DNA of 24,429 nt, from positions 1-24,429 of IMG/VR virus record IMGVR_UViG_2526164634_000030. One strand, written 5' to 3'. The notes beneath the pieces were generated by a model. The model worked only from the letters and a program-made list of their open reading frames with translations, did no database searches and was not told where the DNA came from. How positions within the stretch are numbered: the first letter of the stretch is position 1; every line of letters starts with the position of its first letter. Below, piece after piece: positions 5,277-23,827 of this stretch. This DNA comes from a virus (Duplodnaviria > Heunggongvirae > Uroviricota > Caudoviricetes). Position numbers and translations under genes: made by a program.

Positions 5277-5290
5277 GTGTTACCTGCGAT

Positions 5291-8843: not shown

Positions 8844-9004
8844 GCCCAGTCGATGATGAACTGAGCCGGATTGGTTCGGTAAAACTGCTTCAATACGGGC
8901 AATATTTCAGGATTCTGGCGAATGCGCTGTAGGCGTTCCATCCGCCATTCAAAAACCATCTGGTAATCAGGATGTTTAAAATCGAAGGGGAATGGTAACG
9001 GCAT
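8840..9004 (-). CDS. 54-codon ORF upstream of and overlapping the terminase large subunit ([54 protein letters not shown]); probably the displaced N-terminus of TerL
   Basis: Starts 2 nt after the small-terminase stop and ends in an ATGA overlap with the TerL start. Its end ([10 protein letters not shown]) followed by the TerL start (TTDPRN) reads like a continuous terminase N-terminus. Confidence 0.35.
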
Positions 9005-9006
9005 AC

Positions 9007-9558
9007 TTAGCCCATCATTTTTCTATACGCCTCTGCAGCCTGCTCCGGCGTTAAGTTGGTAATTTCTGTTCTGACTGGTCCTCCATCAGCGCCAGTCACT
9101 TCATTTTTGACGTTGTCTTTAAACGCCTGAACAGAAACATGACGCCCAAGCAACTCAAGGTTTTTAACCTTATCAGGCCATTTGATTTTCTTCAGAAGTG
9201 CGGCGCTATCTGCGGATACCATCTCCACGACATCCATTCCTGATAGCGTTGTGCGCCATACCTTAGGCCAGTCTTTAATGGGCTTTAGCTCACCGTTTTG
9301 CAGGAGAATGTCGAGCACATCCATCTGGTCGATTTCAATAAGGCGATTAAGTACATATTCTGCATTAATACCAACAAGATCATTGCGTTGCGCTTTCAGT
9401 TCAGCGATTCTGAATTGTATGTCAGGTTTTGACAGGTTTTCGGATGCGGTACGGTTAGCTGTCTTTGCGCTGTACCCCGCCCGAATAGCCGCTTGCGTGG
9501 CGTTTAAATCGATGAGGTACTCGCGACAGAACATTTCTTGCTTGTCGGTGAGTGCCAT
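9007..9558 (-). CDS. Terminase small subunit (183 aa)
   Basis: N-terminus [34 protein letters not shown] is the signature of the small-terminase family; located immediately upstream of the large subunit. Confidence 0.7.
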
Positions 9559-9693
9559 TGATATACCTGAGGAAATTATGAAGCTTCGCGTTGCATTTCA
9601 TCGATAACTTTTGGCGTCATCGGCTGATGCGCATATTTACGTTCAATCTCTGCAAAAATCCCGTTCATCGTTTCGCTGTCTGGTGGGATAACT

Positions 9694-9969
9694 TTAACGT
9701 TTAATCGTGCCATTGGTTTGTGCTGCCCTGTTTTTCTCAAAAGCCCTGATATCAGCCTTATCCCTGTTGCACTGTGCTAACGCTGACAACAACGCAACAT
9801 TCAGGTTAAGGCTAGCTCCCCACGTAAACGGGTCGGGTAAATCTGGCTGGGGTGTTTCATCCGTCAGACTGGCTGGTAACGGAACGACCGGCACCGACAC
9901 GTATACCGTTCGCGTATTCGTGCAACCGCTTAACTGCGCCAGAAGGAACGATACGAACAGCGCAATCAT
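9694..9969 (-). CDS. Rz1-like outer-membrane spanin lipoprotein (about 91 aa from internal start MIALFVSFLLAQLSGC)
   Basis: Signal-like hydrophobic N-terminus with a lipobox-like LSGC, then a Pro-rich segment (VPVVPLPASLTDETPQPDLPDP); out of frame with and overlapping the 3' part of the Rz-like gene. Confidence 0.4.
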   Translation of the reverse strand: MIALFVSFLLAQLSGCTNTRTVYVSVPVVPLPASLTDETPQPDLPDPFTWGASLNLNVALLSALAQCNRDKADIRAFEKNRAAQTNGTIKR

Positions 9970-10249
9970 CACCCGAAACAGCCACTTTGATATCTTCCTG
10001 GGTTCTCTGTGACTCCAGTGCGATCTGCTGTTTTGCATGCTGGTTAGCCTCTATAACTGTATTGATGATTTGCAGAGATTGCAGGACGTTACTGGTAATG
10101 GCTGTTGCAGATTCAGCATTTCGTACAGCCTCATCAGCACGCTCCTTTTCGTGCTGATATTTGCTGTAGTAATGCCCGGCAGACCAGATAAAAGAACCGA
10201 TGACGGTAACAAAGAAGGCAACAATAACCAGCTTATATCTCAGCTTCAT
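9857..10249 (-). CDS. Rz-like inner-membrane spanin (130 aa)
   Basis: N-terminal transmembrane segment (LVIVAFFVTVIGSFIW) followed by a charged, probably helical periplasmic domain; directly downstream of the endolysin with a short overlap. Confidence 0.5.
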   Translation of the reverse strand: MKLRYKLVIVAFFVTVIGSFIWSAGHYYSKYQHEKERADEAVRNAESATAITSNVLQSLQIINTVIEANQHAKQQIALESQRTQEDIKVAVSGDDCAVRIVPSGAVKRLHEYANGIRVGAGRSVTSQSDG

Positions 10250-10709
10250 TTACCACCCCACCCGCTTCTTTAAATCGGGCAATCAGGTCACCGATTCTAT
10301 GTTCATACTGACCGTAACCAGCCCCCGGCAACGAAGCCCAGATATTGCTGCAACGGTCGATTGCCTGACGAATATCGCCGCGGTCAATCATCGGTAAAGC
10401 GCCACGCTCTTTAATCTGCTGCAGCGCTACAGCATCCTGGCTTTCTGGAGAAAAATCTTTCAGGCCAAGTTGCTTGCGGTAGGCATCCCACCAGCGTGAA
10501 AGAAGCTGGTAGCGACCGGCTGCTGTTGATTTGAGTTTGAGGTTTAGCGTGACAAGTTTGCGGGGGTGATCGGAGTAATCAGTGAACAGTTCGCCACCGA
10601 CAATAACATCATAACCGTGATTTCTGGTTTTCTGCCGTCCGTTATCTGTTCCTTCTGACCATGCCACCATATCAAGGAAAGCTTTACGCTGGGAATTCAG
10701 TGTCTGCAT
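10233..10709 (-). CDS. Endolysin, lambda R-type lytic transglycosylase (158 aa)
   Basis: Near-identical over its length to lambda R as I recall it (…NQRKAFLDMxAWSEGTDNGRQKTRNHGYDVIVGGELFTDYSDHPRKLVTLN…); same length. Confidence 0.85.
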   Translation of the reverse strand: MQTLNSQRKAFLDMVAWSEGTDNGRQKTRNHGYDVIVGGELFTDYSDHPRKLVTLNLKLKSTAAGRYQLLSRWWDAYRKQLGLKDFSPESQDAVALQQIKERGALPMIDRGDIRQAIDRCSNIWASLPGAGYGQYEHRIGDLIARFKEAGGVVNEAEI

Positions 10710-10712
10710 TAA

Positions 10713-11063
10713 TTACTCCTTATGGGCACCGAACTTGTTACCGATGACCCTCATTGCCGCACCACGAATAGCATCAACACCAATCAGCCCCACCCCACCA
10801 CCAATGGCAACAGAAAGTGATTTAGGCCATCCGACATACTCAAGCGCGGATGCAAAGGTCAGCGTCAGAGCACCACAAAGCAGAATCTCAAGCGTTTTTC
10901 GTTTCCAGCCGCCGCCACCGCCAAAATAGGCAATGCGCAAACCAGCCATAATAATTGACATAACCACTGCACCCAGCGGCGTATCTCCACGCCACCAACT
11001 TTGTAAGAGTTCCAGTAAGTCAGGCCAGGAATGAGGGGCATTGTGCATTTTCATAAGCCTCAC
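10713..11063 (-). CDS. Holin, class I-like with three predicted TM segments (116 aa) and a possible dual-start motif
   Basis: Immediately upstream of the endolysin; hydrophobic segments LGAVVMSIIMAGLRIAYF, LEILLCGALTLTFASALEY and SVAIGGGVGLIGVDAI; N-terminus MRLMKMH has Met at codons 1, 4 and 6 separated by basic residues. Confidence 0.65.
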   Translation of the reverse strand: MRLMKMHNAPHSWPDLLELLQSWWRGDTPLGAVVMSIIMAGLRIAYFGGGGGWKRKTLEILLCGALTLTFASALEYVGWPKSLSVAIGGGVGLIGVDAIRGAAMRVIGNKFGAHKE

Positions 11064-11142
11064 CTCCGAGAGTTCGGATGGTGCTAAGTGTAAGATTCAG
11101 GCTCTCAGGCTTGCTAACAAGAAGTCGAGGATGTTTCCGGAG

Positions 11143-11178
11143 CCTAACAACGAAAAAGCCCCGGGACATGCCGGGGCC
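11143..11178 (-). terminator. Rho-independent terminator-like hairpin downstream of the moron gene, upstream of holin
   Basis: Stem 11158-11164 (GCCCCGG) pairs with 11171-11177; 6-nt loop; on the minus strand it is followed by TTTTTCGTTGT. Confidence 0.4.
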
Positions 11179-11271
11179 AGATGGAGTGCCAGATTAAGCT
11201 TCTGGCGGTATATACTCGTGTTTGATATCGTTAAATCGCCAAAAGTAACAATTCAAACAAAGAGGATTTTT

Positions 11272-11433
11272 ATGTCTGAAAAAAACAAGCCACAAGGTGA
11301 AAATAAACCTCAGCAACCCGTGGCACCAAAACCAACTCCAACACAAAGTACTGCGGACTTTGCTACACGTCGTGTTTTTGTTGGAGATTCTGCCGACTCA
11401 GTCATTGAACATATAAAAAAACAGCCGAGATAA
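11272..11433 (+). CDS. Small hypothetical protein (53 aa, MSEKNKPQGENKPQQPVAPKPTPTQSTADFATRRVFVGDSADSVIEHIKKQPR)
   Basis: Strong Shine-Dalgarno (AAAGAGGA, 5 nt spacer) before the ATG at 11272; convergent with, and overlapping by about 30 nt, the 3' end of the moron gene. Could be spurious. Confidence 0.25.
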   Translation: MSEKNKPQGENKPQQPVAPKPTPTQSTADFATRRVFVGDSADSVIEHIKKQPR

Positions 11434-11971
11434 ACATCGCCGCTACCGGAGCAAGGATGGTATACATCCTTGCTTTATCGAGACTCGTGCGGATTTTCTC
11501 ATTTTCCAACAGTAACTCTCTTGCTGTATCACTCAAGTCAACAAGGCGATACCTTCGTATAAGCGGCAATAACTTATCAGGTCCTAAATATCCTGCATCA
11601 GCGAATATTTTAAAGCTCGAGGGCTCCATATCCTTATATTTTTCATGATATAGATGATCAGGAGGGGCATTGATCAGGCCCCTAACCTTCACAGATAAAC
11701 CAGTACATACCAAGTAAATGGCGCACCATGTCCATAGTAATGTAAATGTGGTAATTCCGGCGGTGAGAAAATCGAAATTAGTTTTCTGTGTCAGCAATAA
11801 AAAAGATGAGCCAATTCCAACAATCTGAATGTTCAGAAGTTTGTATCCATTCTCAACATTGGTTTTGTTAGAAAGATGAATCTCTCGTATCGTCTCTTCC
11901 CCTTGTTTTTCAAGATAATCGACGAGCTCATCATCTACTCCTAAAAAATAATCTTTAGGTAGTTCTCTCAT
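11402..11971 (-). CDS. AT-rich membrane protein of unknown function (189 aa); moron between tR' and the lysis cassette
   Basis: GGAGGTG SD just before the ATG; markedly lower GC than flanking genes; predicted TM segments (IVGIGSSFLLLTQ, ITTFTLLWTWCAIYLVCTGL, MYTILAPVAAMFISAVFLYVQ); flanked by terminator-like hairpins on both sides. Confidence 0.55.
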   Translation of the reverse strand: MRELPKDYFLGVDDELVDYLEKQGEETIREIHLSNKTNVENGYKLLNIQIVGIGSSFLLLTQKTNFDFLTAGITTFTLLWTWCAIYLVCTGLSVKVRGLINAPPDHLYHEKYKDMEPSSFKIFADAGYLGPDKLLPLIRRYRLVDLSDTARELLLENEKIRTSLDKARMYTILAPVAAMFISAVFLYVQ

Positions 11972-12077
11972 CTCACCTCCACATCCTGTACTGAAAACAA
12001 TTTTACCAGAATGTCTCGATTCTAGGTATTCCGCCAGGAATCGCGCTCCAGAAATGAAACATCAGGTTCGCCAGTAC

Positions 12078-12109
12078 CAGAAACAACAAAACCCGCTCAA
12101 TGGCGGGTT
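12078..12109 (-). terminator. tR'-like rho-independent terminator downstream of the Q-like gene
   Basis: Stem AACCCGC (12090-12096) / GCGGGTT (12103-12109) with 6-nt loop; on the minus strand it is followed by TTTTGTTGTTTCT. The position matches lambda-type pR'-tR' architecture. Confidence 0.5.
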
Positions 12110-12192
12110 CTGGTAAAGTTCATGCGCTTGGTTCGCCTCGCGATACAGCTTTGCGAAGCATACCGGAATTGAAGCAGTTTATGCGTAAAAAA
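12110..12192 (-). promoter_or_regulatory. Probable late promoter (pR'-like) region between Q stop and the tR'-like terminator
   Basis: Inferred from position only; AT-rich with -35/-10-like hexamers on the minus strand (TTGATT ... TTCAAT). Not verifiable from sequence alone. Confidence 0.3.
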
Positions 12193-12735
12193 TCAAGCTA
12201 TTTTTTGAGCAAATGATTCTCGCATGGGAATATATAGGGCATACTCAGCAACAGCCAACCAATTAGCAATTCGCTTTTCGCATGTGCTAAAACACCACTC
12301 AGGATGTGCATCATTTAGCAATTCAGCCATTTTGCGCTTAGTCATCCCCCGTCCTTCATACCGTTGCCGGAGGACACTAATCAATCCAGGATGCTCTGCC
12401 AGCACCTCACTTATGACTCTATCAATACATAACGCCTCTGCATCAGTACAATGCGCCAGCCAGGTCTTTTGCTTGCCATTGATCATCTCTCGCAAAAACG
12501 CTTCCAGCTCAGGTTTCTCTATTCCCGCTTTTTTCATCCTGCGCAGGGCTTCATTGACGGCTGTTTTCGTCAATTTTTTGGATGCCAGCAACTGGTTAAA
12601 CATATTTCCCGTCTTACCGCCGCCAATATACGACCAGCGCCCCCACATGCGCAGTTTTCCCTGAATCCAGACACTTTCCAGCGTGGTGAGACGAAGGTGT
12701 TCCCCGCTTTTGCCTGTATTTGTTGGGTAAATCAT
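12193..12735 (-). CDS. Late-gene antiterminator Q-like protein (about 180 aa from internal start MIYPTNTGKSG)
   Basis: AAGGAAGG SD before the ATG at 12735; LRMWGRWSY motif reminiscent of one Q family; C-terminal HTH-like segment; position immediately upstream of pR'/tR' and the lysis genes. The track ORF (220 aa) is longer and overlaps the upstream gene. Confidence 0.55.
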   Translation of the reverse strand: MIYPTNTGKSGEHLRLTTLESVWIQGKLRMWGRWSYIGGGKTGNMFNQLLASKKLTKTAVNEALRRMKKAGIEKPELEAFLREMINGKQKTWLAHCTDAEALCIDRVISEVLAEHPGLISVLRQRYEGRGMTKRKMAELLNDAHPEWCFSTCEKRIANWLAVAEYALYIPMRESFAQKIA

Positions 12736-13022
12736 AAATAACCTTCCTTTCTCCAGATTTCTTGTGTGCGAAAAACACCTTCTGCATACATCAGGCGTAA
12801 TTCTTCTTTGGTGTAATCGCTGGTTTTTACCCGCCCGTCGATTAAATCGTGGCATGAGCTACAGGCAATCGCTGCCTGCATATCGTGTGGTTTTGTCGCT
12901 GTTCCGCACGTCCCCGCCAGCCTGTAATGCGCCAGCACAGAAGTTTCGGGATTGTGATTGCAGTAGCCAGGGATTCTGACCTGGCACATCTGGCCCCGCG
13001 CTGCTTTACGTAAACTCACCAT
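12732..13022 (-). CDS. DUF1364-type Cys-rich nin-region protein, YbcO-like (96 aa)
   Basis: Closely resembles DLP12 YbcO as recalled (…LRKAARGxxCQVRIPGxCNxNPETSVLAH…GTxTKP…IACSxCHD…); Cys/His zinc-binding pattern. Confidence 0.75.
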   Translation of the reverse strand: MVSLRKAARGQMCQVRIPGYCNHNPETSVLAHYRLAGTCGTATKPHDMQAAIACSSCHDLIDGRVKTSDYTKEELRLMYAEGVFRTQEIWRKEGYL

Positions 13023-13621
13023 TACGCAAACTCCAGTAGCTGCGCGGCCACATTTTCGACTTCCTCCGGAGAGGAAAATTTACGGAACAGGATCCAGTTC
13101 CACAGCACATTCAGTACAGATTTATAAACCTGCTGAAACTCGGTTTCGTCCATGTTCGCAAATGCGATAGATTTTGCCCTGCGCCCGCGGCTACCGTCTG
13201 GATAAATATGCTCGGTGTAAAATCCGGCCTGAATGGTTACCCACTCGCGGAAAGCCTCAAACGACTTTAGCAATGCCGTATCCCGGGTTCTGCGTGTCGC
13301 AACTGTATTCAGATATTGCTCTGCGGCTTCGCTCAGAGCTGGCGTATGTTCCCGACCTACTGATTCGCACAGGTACTCAACGAAGCCTGATACCAGTTCT
13401 CGTTCTCGAGGCGTGATCACCCCACCGCTCGGAGTCCAGTAATCGAATCCCAGTTGCAGGAGTTTGAAAAAACGCTTGTGAAATGCGTAGTTACGCACAC
13501 GCTTAAAGTCTGCGTGTATCCACTCACCTATTTTGATTTGATGCAAAAAATCGCAACTCTCCGGCGTCGCCGGGAGAAGTAATCCGGAAGAGGTTTGTTT
13601 GACCAGTTGTATATGCGCCAT
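13022..13621 (-). CDS. Conserved lambdoid nin-region protein (199 aa), DUF1367-like
   Basis: Position between the immunity-side genes and the YbcO-like/Q genes; sequence type recalled from Stx/lambdoid nin regions, unverified. Confidence 0.5.
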   Translation of the reverse strand: MAHIQLVKQTSSGLLLPATPESCDFLHQIKIGEWIHADFKRVRNYAFHKRFFKLLQLGFDYWTPSGGVITPRERELVSGFVEYLCESVGREHTPALSEAAEQYLNTVATRRTRDTALLKSFEAFREWVTIQAGFYTEHIYPDGSRGRRAKSIAFANMDETEFQQVYKSVLNVLWNWILFRKFSSPEEVENVAAQLLEFA

Positions 13622-13692
13622 CGTAGTTCTCCGCTGGCGCAGTAGAATGGGTGTTCAGCCCGTTATGTAGTATACCAGAATTAATGCCAATA

Positions 13693-13944
13693 CTAACATG
13701 ATGCTCTGACTCGCAATTCATCCAGCAGTTTATCATTTCCCATAATGTCACTTACCCTCATCGGTAAAAAAATTGCCTTTCGACCATTACGATACATCAT
13801 TGATTTTGGGGTTTCAGGGAAGTAATCCATTTCGACTATAACTGACAGGTCATCACGACGTATGACTGCGTATTTGCTACTAAATAGTCTCTTTATTTTT
13901 TCCACGATGCCTCCAGGTTTATAAGTACAAACGGTTATATCCAC
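13693..13944 (-). CDS. Hypothetical small protein (83 aa), first ORF of the nin-side operon
   Basis: ORF track only; no convincing SD; moderately AT-rich. Confidence 0.3.
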   Translation of the reverse strand: MDITVCTYKPGGIVEKIKRLFSSKYAVIRRDDLSVIVEMDYFPETPKSMMYRNGRKAIFLPMRVSDIMGNDKLLDELRVRASC

Positions 13945-14083
13945 ATAGAGACAAAAATATTAATCTGAAAAATATTTATTTCACGCCGTATATTTGATTG
14001 TTTAATGTGCAGGTACAATGACTTTTATTTTTTGTTGTGTATATAATCAAATATATGGTTATTTTTCACCCTGCGCATTCAGC

Positions 14084-14112
14084 GCGCAACAAAAAACCCG
14101 CCGAAGCGGGTT
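14084..14112 (-). terminator. Rho-independent terminator at the 3' end of the hok transcript
   Basis: Stem CCCGC (14097-14101) / GCGGG (14106-14110), loop CGAA; on the minus strand it is followed by TTTTTTGTTG. Confidence 0.55.
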
Positions 14113-14182
14113 AAGTGCGGGTGCGTTGAGGATGCCTGACACATCAGAGGTGGCGGGAGATTACTCTCCCGCCTAGTCACTC

Positions 14183-14338
14183 TTACTTCTCAGATTCGTA
14201 GTCCACGAAGACAGCAACCTCCGTCTGGCCGGTTCGGATTCGTACCTCGCAGAGGTCTTTCCTCGTTACCAGTGCCGTCACTATGACGGTTAAACAGATG
14301 ACGATAAGGGCGATTAACATCGCCTTTTGCTGCTTCAT
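14183..14338 (-). CDS. hok: Hok/Gef-family type I toxin (51 aa, MKQQKAMLIALIVICLTVIVTALVTRKDLCEVRIRTGQTEVAVFVDYESEK)
   Basis: Near-identical to HokD/RelF-type Hok peptides as recalled: single TM helix followed by the conserved CEVRIRTGQTEVAVF motif. The track ORF extends in frame upstream to 14395. Confidence 0.85.
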   Translation of the reverse strand: MKQQKAMLIALIVICLTVIVTALVTRKDLCEVRIRTGQTEVAVFVDYESEK

Positions 14339-14895
14339 AGCCTGCTTCTCCTTGCCTTTCGGCACGTAAGAGGCTAACCTACATTTGTGAGACATAGATT
14401 GGGCCTCAGATTAATGTTAAGCGTCTTGTAGGACGCGTAATGTTAACTGGGGCTTTTCTCTATCTGCCTTTTGGTGTTCATGCCTGAGGCAGATAGCCTC
14501 AAGCACCCGCAGCAATTCTAACTATCCAATAGATCAATGCCAACTTCTTTTCCTGCAACATCTCTCATCATAAGTGACCAAAATTCATCCAATCAGCACA
14601 AAAGAAACATTTAAAGCGTGAATGCTACCGAACGTTCATTTCAATTACATCGTTTTGATTTTTAACAGTTTTTACCTCAACAAATCAAATGGCATTAGCA
14701 TTCATCATGGAAGAAAGACTGATAAAAATGATCATTTTCAATGACTTATGATCACACCGGGTATTGCCAAGTCATTCCTTTTACGCCAGGATACCCACAA
14801 GTGAGTAGTCGAGGAGAGTTTGCCAATTTTTGCGATATAAATTTCAATGTCCGAAGAACCATTAATTGTTAATTGATTCTGTATAAGGTATTAAC

Positions 14896-15525
14896 ATGAC
14901 AATTTCATATATTCCTATTCTGAAAGCGAAACGTTCTGAGTTATCAGCTTTATCGCAGCTATCCATTGAAAAGAAATCAAAAATTTTGCCATTACTCGAA
15001 ATTGAACCAGTGCCAATTGACCCTGATTCAGGTATTGCCTTAAAGAGTTATAACGAGACTCTTATAGAGTTCGGAAAGAAAGTCTCAAAATCTTGCTCAG
15101 ATATGCAAGGTGTTTATATTGATGGATTATTAATTGAAGAGCATTTTATTTCTCCTGAAGATCATTACCCTATAATAAATGCGGTTAATCAAGTTAGAGA
15201 TATGGGGATAAGAGTTATTCCTGTCAGTTCACCAACTCGCCCATCTAACTATAAAGGAGCGATTGATGAATTAATGCAGAATGAAATATGCTTGAGATTA
15301 ACCACGTTAGATCTGGTTAACCCACAATTAATAACGCATTACATTAATCATCTGGGAATTCCTTTATCAAATATTGATATAATTATTGACTTAAGAGATG
15401 AGTTAACCGAGGATAAACTTAATTCCGGCGAACTATATACTTTGGCAATGGGATTGATAAACAATCTGGCGCACCTCAATGAATACAGAAAAGTGATTCT
15501 TTCTGGGGGTTCATTTCCTAGGTAA
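14896..15525 (+). CDS. AT-rich orphan protein of unknown function (209 aa as read; last codons and stop are supplied by the IS1 terminus)
   Basis: AAGG SD about 8 nt before the ATG; long uninterrupted ORF in a strongly AT-biased stretch; Lys/Ile/Asn/Leu-rich; ends ...ILSGGSFPR with Arg and stop read from the first bases of IS1. Confidence 0.5.
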   Translation: MTISYIPILKAKRSELSALSQLSIEKKSKILPLLEIEPVPIDPDSGIALKSYNETLIEFGKKVSKSCSDMQGVYIDGLLIEEHFISPEDHYPIINAVNQVRDMGIRVIPVSSPTRPSNYKGAIDELMQNEICLRLTTLDLVNPQLITHYINHLGIPLSNIDIIIDLRDELTEDKLNSGELYTLAMGLINNLAHLNEYRKVILSGGSFPR

Positions 15526-15535
15526 TGACTCCAAC

Positions 15536-16039
15536 TTATTGATAGTGTTTTATGTTCAGATAATGCCCGATGACTTTGTCATGCAGCTCCACCGATTTTG
15601 AGAACGACAGCGACTTCCGTCCCAGCCGTGCCAGGTGCTGCCTCAGATTCAGGTTATGCCGCTCAATTCGCTGCGTATATCGCTTGCTGATTACGTGCAG
15701 CTTTCCCTTCAGGCGGGATTCATACAGCGGCCAGCCATCCGTCATCCATATCACCACGTCAAAGGGTGACAGCAGGCTCATAAGACGCCCCAGCGTCGCC
15801 ATAGTGCGTTCACCGAATACGTGCGCAACAACCGTCTTCCGGAGCCTGTCATACGCGTAAAACAGCCAGCGCTGGCGCGATTTAGCCCCGACGTATCCCC
15901 ACTGTTCGTCCATTTCCGCGCAGACGATGACGTCACTGCCCGGCTGTATGCGCGAGGTTACCGACTGCGGCCTGAGTTTTTTAAATGGCGGAAAATCGTG
16001 TTGAGGCCAACGCCCATAATGCGGGCGGTTGCCCGGCAT
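15536..16039 (-). CDS. insB: IS1 InsB (167 aa; translated as InsAB' transposase by -1 frameshifting)
   Basis: Matches IS1 InsB as recalled (…[72 protein letters not shown]). Confidence 0.9.
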
Positions 16040-16233
16040 CCAACGCCATTCATGGCCATATCAATGATTTTCTGGTGCGTACCGGGTTGAGAAGCGGTGT
16101 AAGTGAACTGCAGTTGCCATGTTTTACGGCAGTGAGAGCAGAGATAGCGCTGATGTCCGGCGGTGCTTTTGCCGTTACGCACCACCCCGTCAGTAGCTGA
16201 ACAGGAGGGACAGCTGATAGAAACAGAAGCCAC
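15958..16233 (-). CDS. insA: IS1 InsA (91 aa)
   Basis: Matches IS1 InsA as recalled ([43 protein letters not shown]…). Confidence 0.9.
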
Positions 16234-16777
16234 TGGAGCACCTCAAAAACACCATCATACACTAAATCAGTAAGTTGGCAGCATCACCCGATTTCCGAGA
16301 AAAATTCTTGATGAGTTGTTTCTCGCTGCGATCTGATGCTGAAAGCTAAAGCAAGTAGCCAGGCTTTGTCTTTATTATCCATCGGAATACCTTATTACTG
16401 GTTGTGTGAGAACTCCAGTATACCACCGAGCCTGAAGTGGTAAAAAGACAGGCGCACAACACGAAGGCGCATTTCCGGTATTCATAAAGAGTCGGTCTTG
16501 TCTGTTAAATTTAAATGGTGGGAGTGCGCCTCCGGTTGTAAATAACGACATTGCTATGTGTAGTCTTTGGCGGCATCAGTTCTACTCCGTGGCTGCCCTG
16601 TCGCCCCTTTTTAAAGTGAATTTTGTGATGCGGTGAATGCGGCTAAGCGCACGCGGCACAGTTAAAAGCATCAGTGTTATGGGTGGATTATCCGGCGTTA
16701 ATTGTTAACTGGTTAACGTCACCTGGAGGCACCAGGCACCGCATCGACAAAATTCATTTGTAAAAATGGAGATAATT

Positions 16778-16999
16778 ATGATTGCTCATCACTTCGGAAC
16801 TGATGAAATACCACGTCAGTGTGTGACCCCTGGCGATTATGTTCTTCATGAAGGTCGGACATATATCGCCTCGGCAAACAATATTAAAAAGCGAAAACTT
16901 TATATTCGTAGCCTGACTACAAAAACATGCATTTCTGACTGCATGATTAAAGTCTTCCTCGGTCGTGATGGTTTACCTGTAAAGGCGGAGTCATGGTAA
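16778..16999 (+). CDS. kilR: KilR-like cell-division inhibitor of Rac-type prophage (73 aa from [14 protein letters not shown])
   Basis: GGAG SD before the ATG at 16778; 73-aa product matches Rac KilR as recalled; followed by ydaE with a TAATG stop/start overlap. Confidence 0.7.
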
Positions 17000-17169
17000 T
17001 GACTAAGAAAATAAAATGTGCTTATCACCTTTGCAATAAAGAAATTGAAGAAAGCAAAATCATTACAAGACCACTTCATTTCATGCGTGGAGTTATACCA
17101 ACGACGGAAATGAAAAAATATTGTAGTGAAAGTTGTGCCGAAAAAGACCAGATGGCACACGAACTTTAA
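16999..17169 (+). CDS. ydaE: YdaE-like small Cys-rich metal-binding protein (56 aa, [20 protein letters not shown]…KKYCSESCAEKDQMAHEL)
   Basis: Not in the ORF track (under 60 aa); translated by hand. Four Cys in a CxxxxC…CxxxC pattern; matches Rac YdaE as recalled; start overlaps the kilR stop. Confidence 0.7.
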   Translation: MTKKIKCAYHLCNKEIEESKIITRPLHFMRGVIPTTEMKKYCSESCAEKDQMAHEL

Positions 17170-17243
17170 TTAACTGACTATTCGAAACTGAATTTATGCC
17201 AGCAATGGCAGGGATTCGCTCAACCTTAATTAAGGAGAAAAAC

Positions 17244-17519
17244 ATGATTACCAGTTATGAAGCCACTGTTGTAACTACTGATGACATTGTTCACGAGGTT
17301 AATCTGGAAGGAAAGCGTATTGGCTACGTGATTAAAACAGAAAATAAAGAAACCCCATTCACTGTGGTTGATATCGACGGTCCATCAGGCAACGTTAAAA
17401 CACTTAACGAAGGCGTCAAAAAAATGTGCCTGGTGCATATCGGAAAGAATCTGCCCGCAGAAAAAAAAGCCGGATTTCTGGCAACTCTGATTGCAATGAA
17501 ATTAAAAGGTGAAATCTGA
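17244..17519 (+). CDS. racC: RacC-like protein (91 aa from MITSYEATVVTTDDIV)
   Basis: AAGGAGAAAAAC-ATG SD; position between ydaE and recE as in Rac; sequence matches RacC as recalled. Confidence 0.65.
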   Translation: MITSYEATVVTTDDIVHEVNLEGKRIGYVIKTENKETPFTVVDIDGPSGNVKTLNEGVKKMCLVHIGKNLPAEKKAGFLATLIAMKLKGEI

Positions 17520-17619
17520 AAGAAATAGCCTGCGTATGGCGCAGGCTATGAACAGTGTGTATCCGGCAAGATTATTCACTGAACAAACGAATTTTAATCT
17601 GAGTTGAGGTTAAAAAACA

Positions 17620-20600
17620 ATGAGCACCGATAAACAAGTTTACCCACTGTATTACGAAGCAAAAAATGACAAAGTAAGAAAACGTCTCGGTATTAAAGGC
17701 GGTTTTTACTGGGCTGAAGCGAAAAAATTATCCATTGCCATCTCCCGTGGTGCTGTTGCAATTGACGATGCTGGCTACGATGAAGATGACTTCAAAAAAC
17801 CTGTTCGCGTCAATTTGCCCATTGTTGATGACCTCCCGCCAGAAGGCGTATTTGATACGGAATTCTGCAACCGTTACGAAAAAGGCGGGGAAGATGGCAT
17901 CACAATGGTATTTATCGCGCCCTCCCCCTCTGCGCAGGGCAAACCAGCCAGCACTGACAACACCAATGTTAATGGCGAAGACATGACGGAGATTGAGGAG
18001 AATATGCTACTTCCGATTTCTGGCCAGGAGCTGCCCATTCGCTGGCTTGCTCAACACGGCAGCGAAAAACCAGTAACGCACGTTTCACGCGACGAACTCC
18101 AGGCATTACACATTGCACGGGCTGAAGAACTACCGGCTGTTACTGCCCTGGCTATTTCGCATAAAACCAGTCTGCTCGACTCGCTGGAGATTCGCGACCT
18201 CCACAAACTGGTTCGTGACACTGACAAAGTTTTCCCTAATCCTGGTAATTCAGACCTGGGACTAATAACTGCTTTTTTCGAAGCATACCTGGACGCTGAC
18301 TACACTGATCGGGGTCTGCTGACAAAAGAGTGGATGAAAGGAAATCGTGTTTCACGCATCACCCGCACGGCTTCCGGTGCTAATGCTGGCGGTGGGAACA
18401 AAACCGATCGCAATCCGAATTTAGTACACACCCTCGACACACTGGATGTGGAGATTGCAGCAGCCACACTTCCGATGGATTTTAATATTTATGAAATTCC
18501 GGGCAGCGTTTATCGTCGCGCAAAAGAAGTAGTCCTGAACAAAGAAAGTCCGTTCAAAGAATGGTCCGCAGCACTTCGTGCAACCCCGGGTATTCTGGAC
18601 TATTCCCGCGCCGCTATTTTTGCACTTATCCGAAGCGCACACCCTGAATTTTATCACTACCCGGGACGCCTTCAGGGGTATATCAACGCCTATTTGACGG
18701 AAACTGATCACGAGAACCCCAGCAAGGAAACTCTCACAGCTGCCCGGCATACGCCGGAAAAAGATATCCTGGAAGAAATTAACCGCGAGGTGGTTACTGA
18801 GCGTGAAACAGAAGAAGAAAAACCACAACCATCTGACGCAATGGCAGGTGAACAGGCAACAACTGAAACAATGGAACCGGATACAACTGAACATGGCCAG
18901 AACGCGCAGTCGCTGGATGCTCAGTCGCAGGTGAGTTCCGCTAACCAAGTAAAAGTCACCGCTGACGAAGTAAACAAAATTATGCAGGCAGCCAATATCA
19001 GCCAGCCTGACGCCGATAAGTTACTTGCTGTATCGCGTGGTGAATTTGTTGAGGGGATTAGCGACCCTAATGATCCGAAATGGGTCAAGGGGATCCAGAC
19101 TCGCGATTCTGTGAACCAGAACCAGCATGAATCGGAACGGAACGACCAAAAAGCGGAACAAAACAGCCCAAATGCGTTACAAAACGAGCCAGAAACGAAA
19201 CAATCCGAACCAGTAGCGCAACAGGAACCGGAAAAAGTCTTCACCGCCTGCGGTCAGAGCGGTGGCGGCAACTGCCCTGATTGTGGCGCGGTGATGGGCG
19301 ACGCAACATACCAGGAAACATTCGATGAAGAGAATCAGGTTGAAGTTCAGGAAAATGATCCGGAGGAAATGGAAGGTGCTGAACATCCGCACAAGGAGAA
19401 CGCTGGCAGCAATCCGCATTGCGATTGCAGTGATGAAGCTGGTGAAGCGACAGCACCTGTAGTAACTGAAATCATGTGGCCGTCATATTTCGAGCCTGGC
19501 CGCTATGAAAACCTCCCGAACGAGGTTTATCACTCCGCCAACGGAATAAGCAGCACAATGCTGAAGGATGCCCGCATCAGCCTGATGTATTACCACGGAC
19601 GGCACATTGCCGGAACTATTCTGGGCGAGGAAAGTGATGCATTGCTGCGTGGGCGGATTATTCACAGCTATGTTCTGGAAACGGATAAATTCGCTGATGA
19701 GTATGCCATTCCGGTACCGGTTCCTGAATATGTGGTTACTACTTCTAACGAACTGATCGCCATCATTAAAAAACACAATGCCAGTCTGCCAGCACTGATG
19801 ACACCAGAGCAGATGAAAGAGTGGATCGAAAGCTACAACAGCACTCTTATACAGCCACTGTCGGTAAGTGCCGGGGCCGAAGAAACAGGCATCCTTTACG
19901 GTTCGCTTCCGGAGGAATTCCGGCGTATTCCTGAGGGGGAAAAACACACAGCATCAGCAATGAAAGCCTGTATTAAAGAATACAACGCAAGCCTCCCTCC
20001 TCTGCTGAAAGCCAGTGGAACACGGGAGCAGCTCCTGGAGCAAATTGAAACTGTAGATCCAGAACTGGCAAAAAAAGAACGTGCTAAATCTTTGCCTTAC
20101 AACATCAGTGGCACAAAAGAGCAATTAACCGAAATCGCCCGGAAAATTCGCCCGGAACTGGTGACACTGGAGGACTGGCAAAAATGCCAGCAAGAAGAAA
20201 ACGCCGGGAAAACGTTTATCAGTCCGGATATGTATGAACAGGCAAAAAATATTCACGCAGCACTGCAAAACAATACTGATGCAGCAAGGCTACTCAACCA
20301 CCCGGATCGCAAATCTGAAATCAGCTATTTCGGGTTTGATGAAGAAACCGGGCTGGAAATCAGGGTCCGTCCTGATATCGAAATCCGGCTGCCATACGAA
20401 AGCATTTGCGCCGACGTGAAGTCAGTCAGCCTCGGTTATGTGCGACAGGAACGACTGAAAGATCGCCTGCACCGTGAAATTATTGAGCGTGATTATCACC
20501 TCAGCGCAGCAATGTATTGCGATGTGGCAAACCTGGACAAATTTTTCTGGATCTTCGTCAACAAAGATGCTGGCTATCACTGGGTGGCCGTCGTGGAAGC

Positions 20601-20763
20601 CTCGCAGGAACTCCTGGAACTTGGTCGACAGGAATATCGCCGGACGCTACGACAGATAAACGAAGCTCTGGAGACAAACAACTGGCCAGCACCGATTACC
20701 GAAAGTTATACCGACGAATTAAACGACTTTGATCTTCGTCGTCTTGAAGCACTGAGCATCTGA
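17620..20763 (+). CDS. recE: Exonuclease VIII (RecE)-like 5'-3' dsDNA exonuclease, 1047 aa
   Basis: Long blocks match Rac RecE as recalled (…NTNVNGEDMTEIEENMLLPISGQELPIRWLAQHGSEKPVTHVSRD…, …ASRGEFVEGISDPNDPKWVKGIQTRD…); acidic low-complexity middle; C-terminal nuclease domain; followed by an annealing-protein gene. Confidence 0.75.
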   Translation: MSTDKQVYPLYYEAKNDKVRKRLGIKGGFYWAEAKKLSIAISRGAVAIDDAGYDEDDFKKPVRVNLPIVDDLPPEGVFDTEFCNRYEKGGEDGITMVFIAPSPSAQGKPASTDNTNVNGEDMTEIEENMLLPISGQELPIRWLAQHGSEKPVTHVSRDELQALHIARAEELPAVTALAISHKTSLLDSLEIRDLHKLVRDTDKVFPNPGNSDLGLITAFFEAYLDADYTDRGLLTKEWMKGNRVSRITRTASGANAGGGNKTDRNPNLVHTLDTLDVEIAAATLPMDFNIYEIPGSVYRRAKEVVLNKESPFKEWSAALRATPGILDYSRAAIFALIRSAHPEFYHYPGRLQGYINAYLTETDHENPSKETLTAARHTPEKDILEEINREVVTERETEEEKPQPSDAMAGEQATTETMEPDTTEHGQNAQSLDAQSQVSSANQVKVTADEVNKIMQAANISQPDADKLLAVSRGEFVEGISDPNDPKWVKGIQTRDSVNQNQHESERNDQKAEQNSPNALQNEPETKQSEPVAQQEPEKVFTACGQSGGGNCPDCGAVMGDATYQETFDEENQVEVQENDPEEMEGAEHPHKENAGSNPHCDCSDEAGEATAPVVTEIMWPSYFEPGRYENLPNEVYHSANGISSTMLKDARISLMYYHGRHIAGTILGEESDALLRGRIIHSYVLETDKFADEYAIPVPVPEYVVTTSNELIAIIKKHNASLPALMTPEQMKEWIESYNSTLIQPLSVSAGAEETGILYGSLPEEFRRIPEGEKHTASAMKACIKEYNASLPPLLKASGTREQLLEQIETVDPELAKKERAKSLPYNISGTKEQLTEIARKIRPELVTLEDWQKCQQEENAGKTFISPDMYEQAKNIHAALQNNTDAARLLNHPDRKSEISYFGFDEETGLEIRVRPDIEIRLPYESICADVKSVSLGYVRQERLKDRLHREIIERDYHLSAAMYCDVANLDKFFWIFVNKDAGYHWVAVVEASQELLELGRQEYRRTLRQINEALETNNWPAPITESYTDELNDFDLRRLEALSI

Positions 20764-20774
20764 GGAAGGACACA

Positions 20775-21827
20775 ATGAACGAATTAACTCAACAAGAAAA
20801 TATTAACTCTAATGTTGCGGTTTTCAGCCCTCAGTCCCTGGCTGCAATTCAGACATTTTCCCAGGTAATGGCTTCCGGCATGGCTACTGTACCGGAACAC
20901 CTCCGGGGAAATCCATCAGACTGCATGGCCATCACCATGCAGGCGATGCAGTGGCAAATGAACCCTTACGCAGTAGCTCAGAAAACTTTCGTTGTGAATG
21001 GTGTGCTCGGATATGAAGCGCAACTGGTTAATGCCGTAATCAGTACTCGTGGGCCGCTAACCGGGCGTATTGAATATGACTGGTTCGGGCCGTGGGAAAA
21101 AATTATCGGGAAATTTGAAATTAGGAAGAACGACAAGGGGAAAGAATATCGTGTACCTGGCTGGAAGCTGGCCGATGAAAACGGGATCGGAGTTCGCGTC
21201 CAGGCAACACTACGCGGAGAGAGCAAGCCACGCGTACTGGAGTTACTTCTGGCGCAGGCCAGAACACGTAACTCAACGTTATGGGCCGATGATCCTCGCC
21301 AGCAGCTTGCCTATCTGGCACTGAAACGCTGGGCGCGCCTTTATTGCCCTGAAGTGATTCTTGGAGTGTACACCCGGGACGAACTGGACGAACCACAGGA
21401 AAAAATCATTAATCCGGTTCAGGAACATAAAAATACATCCGCCTGCCGTGCGGAACGTGAAACAACAATTATTGAGCAGGATGCCGGGGAAAACTGGATC
21501 AGTGCTTTCCGTGAACGTATTGAGCAGGCACAAAGCACCGGAGAAACAACATCACTTCGCCAGGAAGTGGAAGATCATAAAAATACTCTTGGCGCTCTCT
21601 ACACAGAACTTAAAGGAAAAGTGGTTCAGCGTCATCACCGTCTCAATGCTATTGCCCGTATTGAGACGATGATAAATGACCTGCCTTCATCAGGTGATCC
21701 AGAAGCAGAACAAAAATTTATTGCTCTGGAAAATACGCTGAATGCTGCACGACCACATCTGGGAGAATTATATGAGGCGTATAAAACGACACTGACAGAT
21801 ATGAAACCAGAATATATCGGCTCCTGA
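20775..21827 (+). CDS. Single-strand annealing protein (RecT/Redbeta-superfamily-like), 350 aa, partner of the RecE-like exonuclease
   Basis: Position immediately downstream of recE with an 11-nt gap; central segment (…GVLGYEAQLVNAVISTRGPLTGRIEYDWFG…) has a RecT-like pattern, but the protein does not match K-12 RecT as I recall it and is about 80 aa longer. Confidence 0.5.
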   Translation: MNELTQQENINSNVAVFSPQSLAAIQTFSQVMASGMATVPEHLRGNPSDCMAITMQAMQWQMNPYAVAQKTFVVNGVLGYEAQLVNAVISTRGPLTGRIEYDWFGPWEKIIGKFEIRKNDKGKEYRVPGWKLADENGIGVRVQATLRGESKPRVLELLLAQARTRNSTLWADDPRQQLAYLALKRWARLYCPEVILGVYTRDELDEPQEKIINPVQEHKNTSACRAERETTIIEQDAGENWISAFRERIEQAQSTGETTSLRQEVEDHKNTLGALYTELKGKVVQRHHRLNAIARIETMINDLPSSGDPEAEQKFIALENTLNAARPHLGELYEAYKTTLTDMKPEYIGS

Positions 21828-21890
21828 TATTTACTATGGCGGTGTAGCCTCACCGCCATAACAAAACTTTATTTTATGAGAGAAAAGACA

Positions 21891-22085
21891 ATGCGGTATG
21901 AAAAAGTCAAACCATGTCCGTTTTGTGGTTGTCCATCAGTAACGGTGAAAGCCATTTCAGGATATTACCGCGCAAAGTGTAACGGATGCGAATCCCGAAC
22001 CGGCTATAGTGGAAGTGAAAAAGAAGCACTCGAAAGATGGAATAAACGAACTACTGGAAATAATAATGGAGGTGTTCATGTATAA
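21891..22085 (+). CDS. ralR: RalR/Lar restriction-alleviation protein (64 aa from MRYEKVKPCPFCGCPSV)
   Basis: Near-identical to Rac Lar/RalR as recalled, including the CPFCGC…CNGC Cys cluster and the C-terminal WNKRTTGNNNGGVHV. Confidence 0.8.
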   Translation: MRYEKVKPCPFCGCPSVTVKAISGYYRAKCNGCESRTGYSGSEKEALERWNKRTTGNNNGGVHV

Positions 22086-22266
22086 AATTACTGCCACTAT
22101 TGAAAAGGAAGGTGGCACTCCTACTAACTGGACAAGATATTCAAAATCTAAATTAACGAAATCAGAATGCGAAAAAATGCTCTCAGGGAAAAAAGAAGCA
22201 GGCGTTTCCAGAGAGCAGAAAGTAAAGCTGATAAATTTTAATTGCGAGAAACTTCTGTCCTCGTGA
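22078..22266 (+). CDS. ydaC: YdaC-like small protein (62 aa from MYKITATIEKEGG)
   Basis: GGAGG SD 5 nt before the ATG, which overlaps the ralR stop; position matches Rac gene order. Start could alternatively be 22066. Confidence 0.5.
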   Translation: MYKITATIEKEGGTPTNWTRYSKSKLTKSECEKMLSGKKEAGVSREQKVKLINFNCEKLLSS

Positions 22267-22366
22267 GTTGCATTATATACAAATTAGAACTTCATAGCTG
22301 ATTATTAAAAATCAACCACATCCGCCAGTATTCTGTATATTTACTGGCGGTCATATCGTAAGAGGT

Positions 22367-23696: not shown

Positions 23697-23743
23697 TTTT
23701 AACGTAAATGGATTGTTAAATGTATTTTGGTTGTGATATAACC

Positions 23744-23760
23744 AAAAAAGACCGGAATAC
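23744..23760. repeat. Second copy of the sdsR 3'-terminal sequence (AAAAAAGACCGGAATAC); candidate att core or integration scar
   Basis: Near-identical (one extra C) to 23828-23843, which is the 3' end/terminator of sdsR; lies about 48 bp beyond the int stop codon. Confidence 0.5.
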
Positions 23761-23827
23761 AGAAATTCGAGTAAATTTCGGGGAATTTCGGGGAGACGTT
23801 TACAACTGATTGATTTTAAATACAATT

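What the first reader, a model, noticed from the sequence alone, without database searches (positions are those of the whole stretch)
14896..15525. AT-rich orphan ORF in the place of the prophage immunity region, fused at its 3' end to IS1
This 209-codon ORF has a base composition very different from the rest of the prophage (by eye roughly one-third GC against about half in the flanking phage genes), a plausible SD, and Lys/Ile/Asn-rich codon usage typical of recently acquired accessory genes. It sits where cI/cro/N would be in a lambdoid map, between a hok toxin locus and the Rac-like kil operon. I cannot place it in any phage core function or known family from sequence alone. Its last codons and stop are supplied by the first bases of IS1 (…SGGSFP then R-stop), so the native C-terminus, or a downstream partner gene, may have been removed. 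Accessory genes at this kind of position are often anti-phage or exclusion functions, which makes this my top candidate for an undescribed system, possibly inactivated.
Basis: partly seen in the sequence, partly recalled or inferred. Interest (0 to 1): 0.72.

Follow-up and report, generated by a model that had tools for sequence, protein, structure and literature searches.

The report
Broken P4-beta-like defence gene remnant
The AT-rich ORF is the first 57% of an already catalogued "beta family" gene. A 6.3-kb deletion next to an IS1 element removed its other end, its nuclease partner gene and the prophage's repressor and replication genes, so it is a dead remnant of a probable anti-phage cassette and not a new system.

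Summary
There is a 209-codon ORF (14896-15525, G+C 0.35 against 0.49 elsewhere), and IS1 supplies its stop codon.

The ORF is not an orphan. It is 208/208 identical to the N-terminus of a 365-aa "beta family protein" (Pfam PF14350, 78.8 bits). That gene is intact in 93 of 5,426 complete E. coli genomes and in phage Rac-SA53.

In intact prophages the beta gene converges on a 192-aa sce7726-family gene, and their 3' ends overlap by 41 bp. The sce7726 protein is a predicted PD-(D/E)xK nuclease and a homologue of satellite phage P4 cII. The beta protein is a predicted TIM barrel, homologous to P4 beta and to PD-lambda-2 component C. Both of those belong to experimentally validated anti-phage systems.

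In this window an IS1-associated 6,305-bp deletion, with no target duplication, removed four things:
- the last 157 beta codons
- the nuclease partner gene
- the ydaT/ydaU-like/ydaV replication block
- both repressor-like HTH genes

That deletion is why the ORF appears to sit "in the immunity region".

The remnant lacks 50 of the family's 103 invariant positions and has no effector gene, so it is almost certainly non-functional.

Side result: the gop-less beta/sce7726 pair is conserved across phyla and has not been tested experimentally in the literature I could search.

The parts
14521..14895 (+). AT-rich 5' leader and presumed promoter region of the beta/sce7726 cassette. The cassette's left boundary is at about 14520/14521.
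   Evidence: More than 4,000 E. coli genomes that carry hok/sok but not the beta gene stop matching the window at query position 571, which is window 14520. The sok RNA ends at 14508. G+C is 0.349. No consensus sigma-70 site was found on the + strand, so the promoter is not located.
14896..15525 (+). Truncated beta-family gene: 208 native codons, then an Arg codon completed by IS1 and a TAA stop from IS1. It covers residues 1-208 of the 365-aa protein WP_000156212.1.
   Evidence: ORF listing. Pfam PF14350 at 78.8 bits, covering profile positions 1-204 of 342. PADLOC PD-Lambda-2_C at 8.7e-17. 208/208 identical to the intact allele. The intact allele is 365 aa.
15521..16288 (-). IS1 element, 768 bp, with insA at 15958-16233 and insB at 15536-16039 on the minus strand. 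There is no target-site duplication: the left flank is CATTTCCTA and the right flank is CGATTTCCG.
   Evidence: Sequence and ORFs. DDE_Tnp_IS1 domain in the identical locus L005. IS1 matches in thousands of genomes. Flanks printed.
15520..16289 (.). The two end points of a 6,305-bp deletion relative to the intact prophage. Window 15520 corresponds to L004 21121, and window 16289 to L004 27427.
   Evidence: The window aligns with L004 at 99.98% (1-15520) and 99.95% (16279-24429). Exact junctions were read. Deleted gene content comes from the L004 annotation.
16289..16382 (-). 5' remnant (31 of 64 codons) of a small hypothetical gene (WP_001419881.1 in L004), cut by the right end of the deletion.
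   Evidence: L004 annotation 27326-27520 (-), mapped with the offset. The ATG on the minus strand at 16382 was read.

Best explanation
Shown: the ORF is the 5' 57% of a beta-family gene (Pfam Beta_protein, named after the beta protein of satellite phage P4). In intact Rac-SA53-like prophages this 365-codon gene and a convergent 192-codon sce7726-family gene (P4 cII-like) form a roughly 2-kb AT-rich cassette between hok/sok and the replication genes. In this genome a single IS1 sits at a 6,305-bp deletion that removed beta codons 209-365, the whole sce7726 gene, DUF977, DUF1627, ydaV, a ydaU-like gene, ydaT and both repressor-like HTH genes.

Inferred, about 0.9: the remaining ORF is a non-functional pseudogene. 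It cannot close its predicted TIM barrel, it has lost half of the invariant residues, and it has no effector partner.

Inferred, about 0.4-0.5: the intact cassette is a toxin-antitoxin-like, abortive-infection type anti-phage module. The sce7726 protein would be the effector: it has a PD-(D/E)xK nuclease fold and an invariant E29/D40/E52-x-K54 motif. The beta TIM barrel would be the regulator or sensor that restrains or licenses it, as beta homologues do for Gop in P4 and for the toxic Xre-peptidase in PD-lambda-2. The conserved convergent 3' overlap may also couple expression of the two genes.
For: Identity and truncation:
- Family hits.
- 100% DNA identity of 14400-15519 to intact alleles annotated 'beta family protein'.
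- 208/208 residues identical.
- Collinearity with L004 apart from the 6,305-bp gap.
- Deleted genes listed.
- The same arrangement is present in NCBI assembly GCA_000250275.2.

Loss of function:
- The AlphaFold model of the intact protein (pLDDT 88) is a beta/alpha barrel, with further strands at 217-222 and 243-246 and a C-terminal helical region beyond residue 208.
- 50 of 103 invariant alignment positions lie after residue 208.
- Of 2,418 family representatives, almost all are 350-370 aa and align end to end.

Partner gene:
- NCBIfam sce7726_fam at 191 bits against a cutoff of 70.
- PADLOC 'cll' model at 2.4e-28.
- hhalign against P4 cII at 98.7% probability.
- Invariant E29, D40, E52 and K54.

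Pair conservation:
- A convergent partner overlapping by 41-62 bp in 10 of 12 loci, from Enterobacterales to Nitrospirae and Dehalococcoidia.
- The same layout in Gordonia phages and, without overlap, in P4.

Defence link:
- P4 gop-beta-cII protects against lambda and P1, and Gop is toxic without beta (PMC9122126).
- A phage accessory gene triggers cell death through gop-beta-cII (bioRxiv 10.1101/2023.04.06.535777).
- PD-lambda-2C is required for defence (PMC9519451).
- The beta protein aligns with P4 beta over its full length (23% identity, E 5e-9).
Against: - There are no expression or phenotype data for the remnant or for the intact two-gene cassette.
- The remnant keeps its native start, Shine-Dalgarno-like motif and upstream region, and has no substitutions, so a 209-aa product may still be made.
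- PADLOC includes a 192-position PD-Lambda-2_C model that matches residues 1-117, so short N-terminal forms are present in databases. They may be fragments.
- Neither validated system is a two-gene beta+cII cassette. In P4 the documented toxic partner of beta is Gop, not cII, and the role of cII in defence is unknown.
- The fold search gives the TIM barrel no specific enzymatic relative, so 'sensor/regulator' is an argument by analogy.
- Gordonia phage annotators call the sce7726 homologue an 'exonuclease', and one source calls it 'MmcB-like DNA repair protein'. Both labels fit a DNA-metabolism role as well as a defence role.
Confidence: 0.85

Rival explanations
1. The truncated 209-aa N-terminal fragment is still functional on its own, for example as a decoy, a dominant-negative form or a minimal sensor domain, and has been retained for that reason.
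For: - The ORF is open, keeps its native start and upstream region, and is 100% identical to the parent.
- A 192-position PADLOC PD-Lambda-2_C model exists and matches the N-terminus.
Against: - The truncation is recent and rare. The exact protein was found in one NCBI assembly and three sequencing-run contigs, and in none of 5,426 complete genomes. Perfect identity therefore reflects lack of time, not selection.
- The barrel is incomplete and 50 of 103 invariant positions are gone.
- Family members are almost uniformly full length.
- No partner effector remains in the window.
Confidence: 0.06
2. One reading: an orphan gene that represents an undescribed defence system occupying the immunity region.
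For: - AT-rich accessory composition.
- A position next to toxin loci.
- No publication on the two-gene cassette was found.
Against: - Strong membership in a curated Pfam family and in PADLOC and PHROG models.
- Named in RefSeq and in the Rac-SA53 record.
- Homologous to components of two validated systems.
- The apparent position in the immunity region is a deletion artefact.
Confidence: 0.02
3. The remnant is correctly identified, but the intact beta/sce7726 cassette is not a defence module. It would instead serve the phage's own DNA metabolism or regulation, for example as a repair or recombination nuclease with an accessory enzyme, or as a lysogeny regulator as the name cII implies.
For: - The sce7726 homologue is annotated 'exonuclease' in Gordonia phage Powerball.
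- One source labels it 'DNA repair protein MmcB-like', and others 'regulatory protein'.
- The best structural match is the MmcB-like protein 3dnx.
- The TIM barrel could be an enzyme.
Against: - The cassette is AT-rich, sporadic (1.7% of E. coli genomes) and dispensable. It sits in accessory slots next to toxin-antitoxin loci in unrelated phages.
- Beta homologues are required components of two experimentally validated Abi-type systems.
- In a Nitrospirae genome the pair is fused to a complete PD-lambda-2 A/B/C set.
Confidence: 0.15
4. A rival for the deletion mechanism only: the deletion arose by homologous recombination between two separately inserted IS1 copies, one in beta and one near the kil operon, rather than by a one-step IS1-promoted adjacent deletion.
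For: - The single IS1 with non-matching 9-bp flanks fits either route.
- IS1 repeatedly hits this AT-rich cassette, in PEC209 inside beta and in Rac-SA53 just beyond the cII-like gene.
Against: - No genome with an IS1 at either of the two exact positions was found among 5,426 complete genomes.
- Both routes give the same product, so the sequence cannot discriminate between them.
Confidence: 0.35

Closest known systems
Satellite phage P4 gop-beta-cII (DefenseFinder Rst_gop_beta_cll; PADLOC gop_beta_cll)
   Same: - The intact beta protein aligns with P4 beta over its full length (23% identity, E 5e-9; hhalign 89%).
- The lost partner is homologous to P4 cII (98.7%), which RefSeq itself names 'sce7726 family protein'.
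- Beta and cII are convergent in both.
- Both cassettes are AT-rich accessory cargo of a mobile element.
- The P4 system protects against lambda and P1.
   Different: - There is no gop gene in the window, in the intact prophage or in any related locus.
- P4 cII is 264 aa against 192 aa here.
- The P4 genes are separated by a terminator, whereas here the 3' ends overlap by 41 bp.
- In the window the partner is deleted and beta is truncated.
PD-lambda-2 (Vassallo et al. 2022): HigB-like A, Xre-peptidase B, beta-like C
   Same: - The beta protein's best PADLOC hits are the PD-Lambda-2_C models, over the full length (2.8e-41 for the intact protein, 8.7e-17 for the remnant).
- C is required for defence and is described as related to a P4 antitoxin.
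- A Nitrospirae locus (L016) combines A+B+C with a convergent sce7726 gene, which links the two architectures.
   Different: - There is no HigB-like or Xre-M78 peptidase gene next to beta in the window or in the intact E. coli prophage.
- The neighbour there is a PD-(D/E)xK nuclease-like gene.
Intact allele in Escherichia phage Rac-SA53 (KU052037) and 93 complete E. coli genomes (WP_000156212.1 / WP_001204666.1)
   Same: - Same gene, 99.5-100% DNA identity.
- Same prophage backbone (window against L004: 99.95-99.98%).
   Different: - The window copy lacks codons 209-365 and the partner gene.
- It also lacks the prophage's repressor and replication block.
NCBIfam sce7725/sce7726 gene pair (NF033831/NF033832)
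   Same: - The lost partner passes the sce7726_fam cutoff (191 bits against 70).
- The N-terminal roughly 35 residues of beta weakly resemble sce7725_fam (E 0.049).
   Different: - Beta does not reach the sce7725_fam cutoff (13 bits against 60).
- It belongs to the Pfam Beta_protein family, which may be a sister family.
PD-(D/E)xK nucleases of the MmcB-like, Can2 and NucS type (for the lost partner only)
   Same: - Invariant D...ExK motif.
   Different: - No sequence-level match to any solved structure.
- The C-terminal helical extension is specific to the family.
- Nuclease activity is untested.

Membership tests
Pfam Beta_protein (PF14350) | Score above the gathering threshold | tested here: met
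   78.8 bits against a cutoff of 27 for the window ORF, and 177.3 bits for the intact allele.
Pfam Beta_protein (PF14350) | Full-length domain (about 342 profile positions; members 350-370 aa) | tested here: not met
   The window ORF covers profile positions 1-204 of 342. Family representatives align across residues 4-362. The window ORF is therefore a fragment of a member.
P4 gop-beta-cII anti-phage system | beta homologue | tested here: met
   BLASTP of the intact allele against P4 beta: E 5e-9 over the full length. The PADLOC 'beta' model hits only the N-terminus of the window ORF (1.9e-4).
P4 gop-beta-cII anti-phage system | Adjacent cII (sce7726-family) gene | tested here: not met
   Absent from the window because it was deleted. 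Present and convergent in the intact allele.
P4 gop-beta-cII anti-phage system | gop toxin gene upstream of beta | tested here: not met
   tblastn of Gop against the window and 11 related loci found nothing better than E 1.6. Neighbouring ORFs gave no PADLOC gop hit, while P4 Gop itself scored 4.8e-70 as a positive control.
PD-lambda-2 | Component C (beta-like) | tested here: met
   PDLC03983 at 8.7e-17 for the window ORF and 2.8e-41 for the intact allele.
PD-lambda-2 | Components A (HigB-like) and B (Xre-peptidase) in the same operon | tested here: not met
   Flanking ORFs of the window and of L004 gave no such hits. The annotation shows hok on one side and sce7726 on the other. As positive controls, L016 and L018 do carry A and B.
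NCBIfam sce7725/sce7726 pair | sce7726_fam partner next to the gene | tested here: not met
   Not in the window (deleted). In the intact allele the partner scores 191 bits against a cutoff of 70.
NCBIfam sce7725/sce7726 pair | The gene itself passes sce7725_fam | tested here: not met
   13.3 bits against a cutoff of 60, N-terminal 35 residues only. The full-length allele gave no hit.
IS1 | 768-bp element with terminal inverted repeats and insA/insB | tested here: met
   15521-16288 with insA and insB ORFs. DDE_Tnp_IS1 domain in the identical locus.
IS1 | 8-9-bp target-site duplication, as expected for a simple insertion | tested here: not met
   The flanks CATTTCCTA and CGATTTCCG differ. This fits a deletion and not a simple insertion.
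Anti-phage defence system (functional definition) | Reduces plating of at least one phage when expressed | not testable with these tools
   Inferred only from homologous components of validated systems.

The most novel reading that the evidence does not exclude
The most novel reading not excluded concerns the intact parent, not the dead copy in this window. The gop-less beta/sce7726 pair would be an autonomous, widespread and still unvalidated anti-phage system, in which a TIM-barrel protein controls a PD-(D/E)xK nuclease. The 41-62-bp convergent 3' overlap, conserved from Enterobacterales to Nitrospirae and Dehalococcoidia, would be part of its regulation. More broadly, the beta TIM barrel would be a common hub that plugs into different effectors: the Gop membrane toxin, the HigB/Xre-peptidase pair, or a nuclease. 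The four-gene Nitrospirae locus L016 would be a hybrid of these.
Probability: 0.4. Interest if true: 0.55.

Novelty: new variant of a known kind. Interest (0 to 1): 0.24.

Why it matters
The window feature itself matters little. It is a recent IS1-generated pseudogene of a catalogued gene family, and it should not be pursued as a new system.

It does give a clean example of one IS1-associated event that both destroys a prophage accessory cassette and grounds the prophage. The repressor-like genes and the ydaT/ydaU-like/ydaV replication block are lost, while kilR, recET, int/xis and the late genes are kept.

The useful by-product concerns the intact parent:
- The beta and sce7726 (cII) families are so far known only as parts of the three-gene P4 gop-beta-cII and PD-lambda-2 systems. 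They also form a minimal two-gene cassette that is conserved across distant phyla and phages.
- The beta protein is predicted to be a TIM barrel and the sce7726 protein a PD-(D/E)xK nuclease.
- That gives a concrete, testable mechanistic hypothesis for a family whose biochemistry is unknown.

Tried and rejected
- Orphan or novel family: rejected by the Pfam, PADLOC and PHROG hits.
- Simple IS1 insertion: rejected. There is no target duplication and 6,305 bp are missing relative to the intact prophage. The apparent 10-bp homology at the right junction in the BLAST alignment was only extension through mismatches.
- A gop-like or PD-lambda-2 A/B gene hidden in the small upstream ORFs (14622-14744, 14741-14872) or elsewhere nearby: no hits.
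- Sequence relatives with solved structures for either protein, by single sequence and by profile: none below E 0.6.
- The same IS1 junction in complete E. coli genomes: none found. It was found only in draft assembly GCA_000250275.2 and three sequencing-run contigs.
- A consensus promoter for the ORF on the + strand: none found by the simple scan.
- Literature on sce7726, sce7725, PF14350, 'beta family protein' and Rac-SA53: no functional study of the two-gene pair.

Full report
**1. The observation.**
The window contains an ATG-initiated ORF of 209 codons at 14896-15525 on the + strand. An AAGG motif lies 7 nt upstream of the start.

G+C is 0.346 for the ORF and 0.349 for the 387 bp before it, against 0.49 for the rest of the window. 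In 2,000 shuffles of the AT-rich segment the longest stop-free run averaged 72 codons and never exceeded 146. The observed run is 211, so the ORF is not a chance product.

A complete 768-bp IS1 occupies 15521-16288, with insA and insB on the minus strand. IS1 supplies the last two bases of the final Arg codon and the TAA stop. To the left are hok (14183-14338) and the sok RNA (14333-14508). To the right are kilR, ydaE and recE.

**2. What the ORF is.**
It is not an orphan:
- It matches Pfam Beta_protein (PF14350) at 78.8 bits against a cutoff of 27, but only over profile positions 1-204 of 342.
- It matches the PADLOC PD-Lambda-2_C models at 8.7e-17.
- It matches PHROG 9159 at 9e-79.

The stretch 14400-15519 is 100% identical to three complete E. 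coli genomes, where it is the 5' part of a 365-codon gene annotated 'beta family protein' (WP_000156212.1). The window product is 208/208 identical to that protein's N-terminus.

In every intact copy the gene converges on a 192-codon 'sce7726 family protein' gene (WP_001204666.1), and their 3' ends overlap by 41 bp. This pair is present in 93 of 5,426 complete E. coli genomes, always chromosomal and at 97.8% identity or more. It is also in Escherichia phage Rac-SA53, whose depositors already noted 'beta' and 'CII phage-like protein'.

**3. What happened in this window.**
The window is collinear with the intact prophage of strain FDAARGOS_1059 (locus L004). Positions 1-15520 align at 99.98% and positions from 16289 onward at 99.95%. 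Reading the junctions shows that window 15520 corresponds to L004 21121 and window 16289 to L004 27427. So 6,305 bp are missing and IS1 sits in their place. The 9-bp flanks differ (CATTTCCTA and CGATTTCCG), so there is no target duplication.

According to the L004 annotation the deleted segment held:
- beta codons 209-365
- the whole sce7726 gene
- a hypothetical gene
- DUF977 and DUF1627
- ydaV, a ydaU-like gene and ydaT
- a divergent pair of HTH genes, which from their position I infer to be the cro-like and repressor-like genes
- one further small gene, and the 3' part of another

This explains why the ORF seems to sit 'where cI/cro/N would be': the immunity and replication block was removed in the same event. 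In the intact prophage the cassette lies between hok/sok and the replication genes.

Genomes that have hok/sok but not the cassette stop matching at window 14520, which sets the cassette's left edge at about 14521.

The exact truncated protein, with the same IS1 and kilR neighbours, is on record in NCBI assembly GCA_000250275.2 and in three short sequencing-run contigs. No complete genome has this junction. The event is therefore real, recent and rare. The sequence cannot tell whether it was a one-step IS1-promoted adjacent deletion or recombination between two IS1 copies.

**4. Is the remnant functional?**
Almost certainly not:
- The AlphaFold model of the intact protein (pLDDT 88, pTM 0.88) is an alternating beta/alpha barrel followed by a beta-hairpin and a C-terminal helical region.
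- Truncation after residue 208 removes the last barrel strands and everything C-terminal to them.
- 50 of the 103 invariant positions in an alignment of 26 homologues lie beyond residue 208.
- In a library of 1.84 billion representatives the family has 2,418 members at E of 0.001 or less. Nearly all are 350-370 aa and align from residue 4 to about 362, and the few short entries look like fragments.
- No partner gene remains in the window.

The perfect sequence identity to the parent reflects the youth of the deletion and not selection.

**5. What the intact cassette most likely does (inference).**
The lost partner:
- It passes NCBIfam sce7726_fam (191 bits against 70).
- It matches the PADLOC model for P4 cII (2.4e-28) and P4 cII itself by profile comparison (98.7%).
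- E29, D40, E52 and K54 are invariant in 46 homologues, which is the classic D...ExK catalytic signature.

The beta protein aligns with P4 beta over its full length (23% identity, E 5e-9). It resembles component C of PD-lambda-2 even more closely (2.8e-41).

What the literature shows:
- A phage accessory gene triggers cell death through that locus (bioRxiv 10.1101/2023.04.06.535777).
- In PD-lambda-2 the Xre-peptidase is the toxic component, the HigB-like protein neutralises it, and the beta-like component is needed for defence (PMC9519451).

By analogy I propose that, in the two-gene cassette, the nuclease-like protein is the effector and the TIM-barrel protein controls or licenses it. I rate this at roughly 0.4-0.5, because no experiment addresses the two-gene form and the role of cII in P4 defence is unknown.

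**6. Conservation of the pair.**
Of 12 loci encoding beta relatives, 10 have a convergent sce7726 gene that overlaps the beta 3' end by 41-62 bp. The loci come from Samsonia, Cedecea, Xenorhabdus, Phytobacter, Tatumella, Photorhabdus, Aeromonas, a Nitrospirae MAG, a Dehalococcoidia MAG and others. One of the two exceptions is cut by a contig end.

Gordonia phages Powerball and DumpsterDude have the same convergent overlapping pair, in the accessory slot between the integrase/immunity genes and a HicAB locus. P4 has the same convergent order, with a terminator in place of the overlap, plus gop upstream of beta.

No gop relative was found in the window or in any related locus.

Unexpectedly, the Nitrospirae locus L016 carries HigB-like, Xre-M78-peptidase, beta and convergent sce7726 genes together. 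L018 carries the first three only. The beta family therefore occurs in at least four architectures and looks like a common hub.

**7. Comparison with known systems and novelty.**
The window ORF is a fragment of a member of the Beta_protein family. It cannot be filed under gop-beta-cII, because gop is absent and cII is deleted. It cannot be filed under PD-lambda-2, because A and B are absent.

Its parent is best described as a gop-less two-gene variant of the P4 beta/cII kind. It is catalogued by name in RefSeq, NCBIfam, Pfam and PHROGs, but I found no functional study of it.

The feature in this window is a pseudogene, so its interest is low. The parent cassette is moderately interesting as an untested candidate defence module with a clear structural hypothesis.

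**8. Limits.**
- Everything about function is inferred from homology, predicted structures and gene context.
- The fold searches give no specific activity for the TIM barrel.
- The promoter of the cassette was not located.
- The labels 'cro-like' and 'repressor-like' for the deleted HTH genes rest on position and annotation only.

Noticed in passing
window 15520-16289 (deletion); compare L004 21122-27426: The same IS1-associated deletion removed the prophage's repressor-like HTH pair and the ydaT/ydaU-like/ydaV replication block. It left kilR, ydaE, recE, recT, ralR, xis, int and all late genes at 99.95-99.98% identity to an intact prophage. The prophage should be grounded. It is unclear how the toxic kilR gene is kept silent without its repressor.
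   Followed up: partly
window 16555-16606 (+): A DicF-family antisense sRNA match (55.3 bits against a gathering score of 48). It lies just right of the IS1 and upstream of kilR, in a Rac-like rather than Qin-like prophage.
   Followed up: no
window 14183-14508 (-): A hok/mok/sok type I toxin-antitoxin locus immediately left of the cassette: hok at 14183-14338 and the sok RNA at 14333-14508 (121.7 bits). More than 4,000 E. coli genomes share this module, and their match ends sharply at 14520.
   Followed up: partly
window 21891-22262: The ralR toxin gene with its RalA antitoxin sRNA (223.8 bits, 22084-22262, minus strand), near the prophage's int/xis end.
   Followed up: no
window 23824-23967: The overlapping SraC/RyeA (+) and SdsR/RyeB (-) sRNA genes lie between the prophage integrase and yebY. 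They mark the chromosomal attachment region of this prophage.
   Followed up: no
L003 6977-7674 (strain PEC209) and L022 5302-6067 (phage Rac-SA53): IS1 has hit the same AT-rich cassette independently at least twice more. In PEC209 it is inside beta, with both halves kept. In Rac-SA53 it is just beyond the cII-like gene, with an 8-bp duplication AAACATTT. This would fit an IS1 preference for AT-rich targets (my own knowledge, not tested here).
   Followed up: partly
L016 2451-5588 (Nitrospirae MAG JACQZF010000079.1): A four-gene locus combining a complete PD-lambda-2 set with a convergent, overlapping sce7726/cII-like nuclease gene. The set is HigB-like A, Xre-M78 peptidase B (538 bits) and beta-like C. 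L018 has A+B+C without the nuclease gene.
   Followed up: yes
L004 21554-21594 and the equivalent positions in L009-L017: The convergent 3'-end overlap of the beta and sce7726 genes is conserved down to 26-30% protein identity. It is 41 bp in most Enterobacterales, 44 bp in Cedecea, 56 bp in Aeromonas and Nitrospirae, and 62 bp in Dehalococcoidia. This suggests coupled or antisense regulation.
   Followed up: partly
window 4056-5276 (-): The DUF2213 head-region gene is an intact 406-codon ORF here. The otherwise near-identical prophage in FDAARGOS_1059 (L004 9658-10877) has it annotated as frameshifted.
   Followed up: partly
L021 3938-5750 (Gordonia phage Powerball genes 33 and 32): The actinophage homologue of the sce7726 protein is annotated 'exonuclease', and its beta-like partner 'hypothetical protein'. 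The pair sits between the integrase/immunity cassette and a HicAB toxin-antitoxin locus, a typical accessory slot.
   Followed up: no
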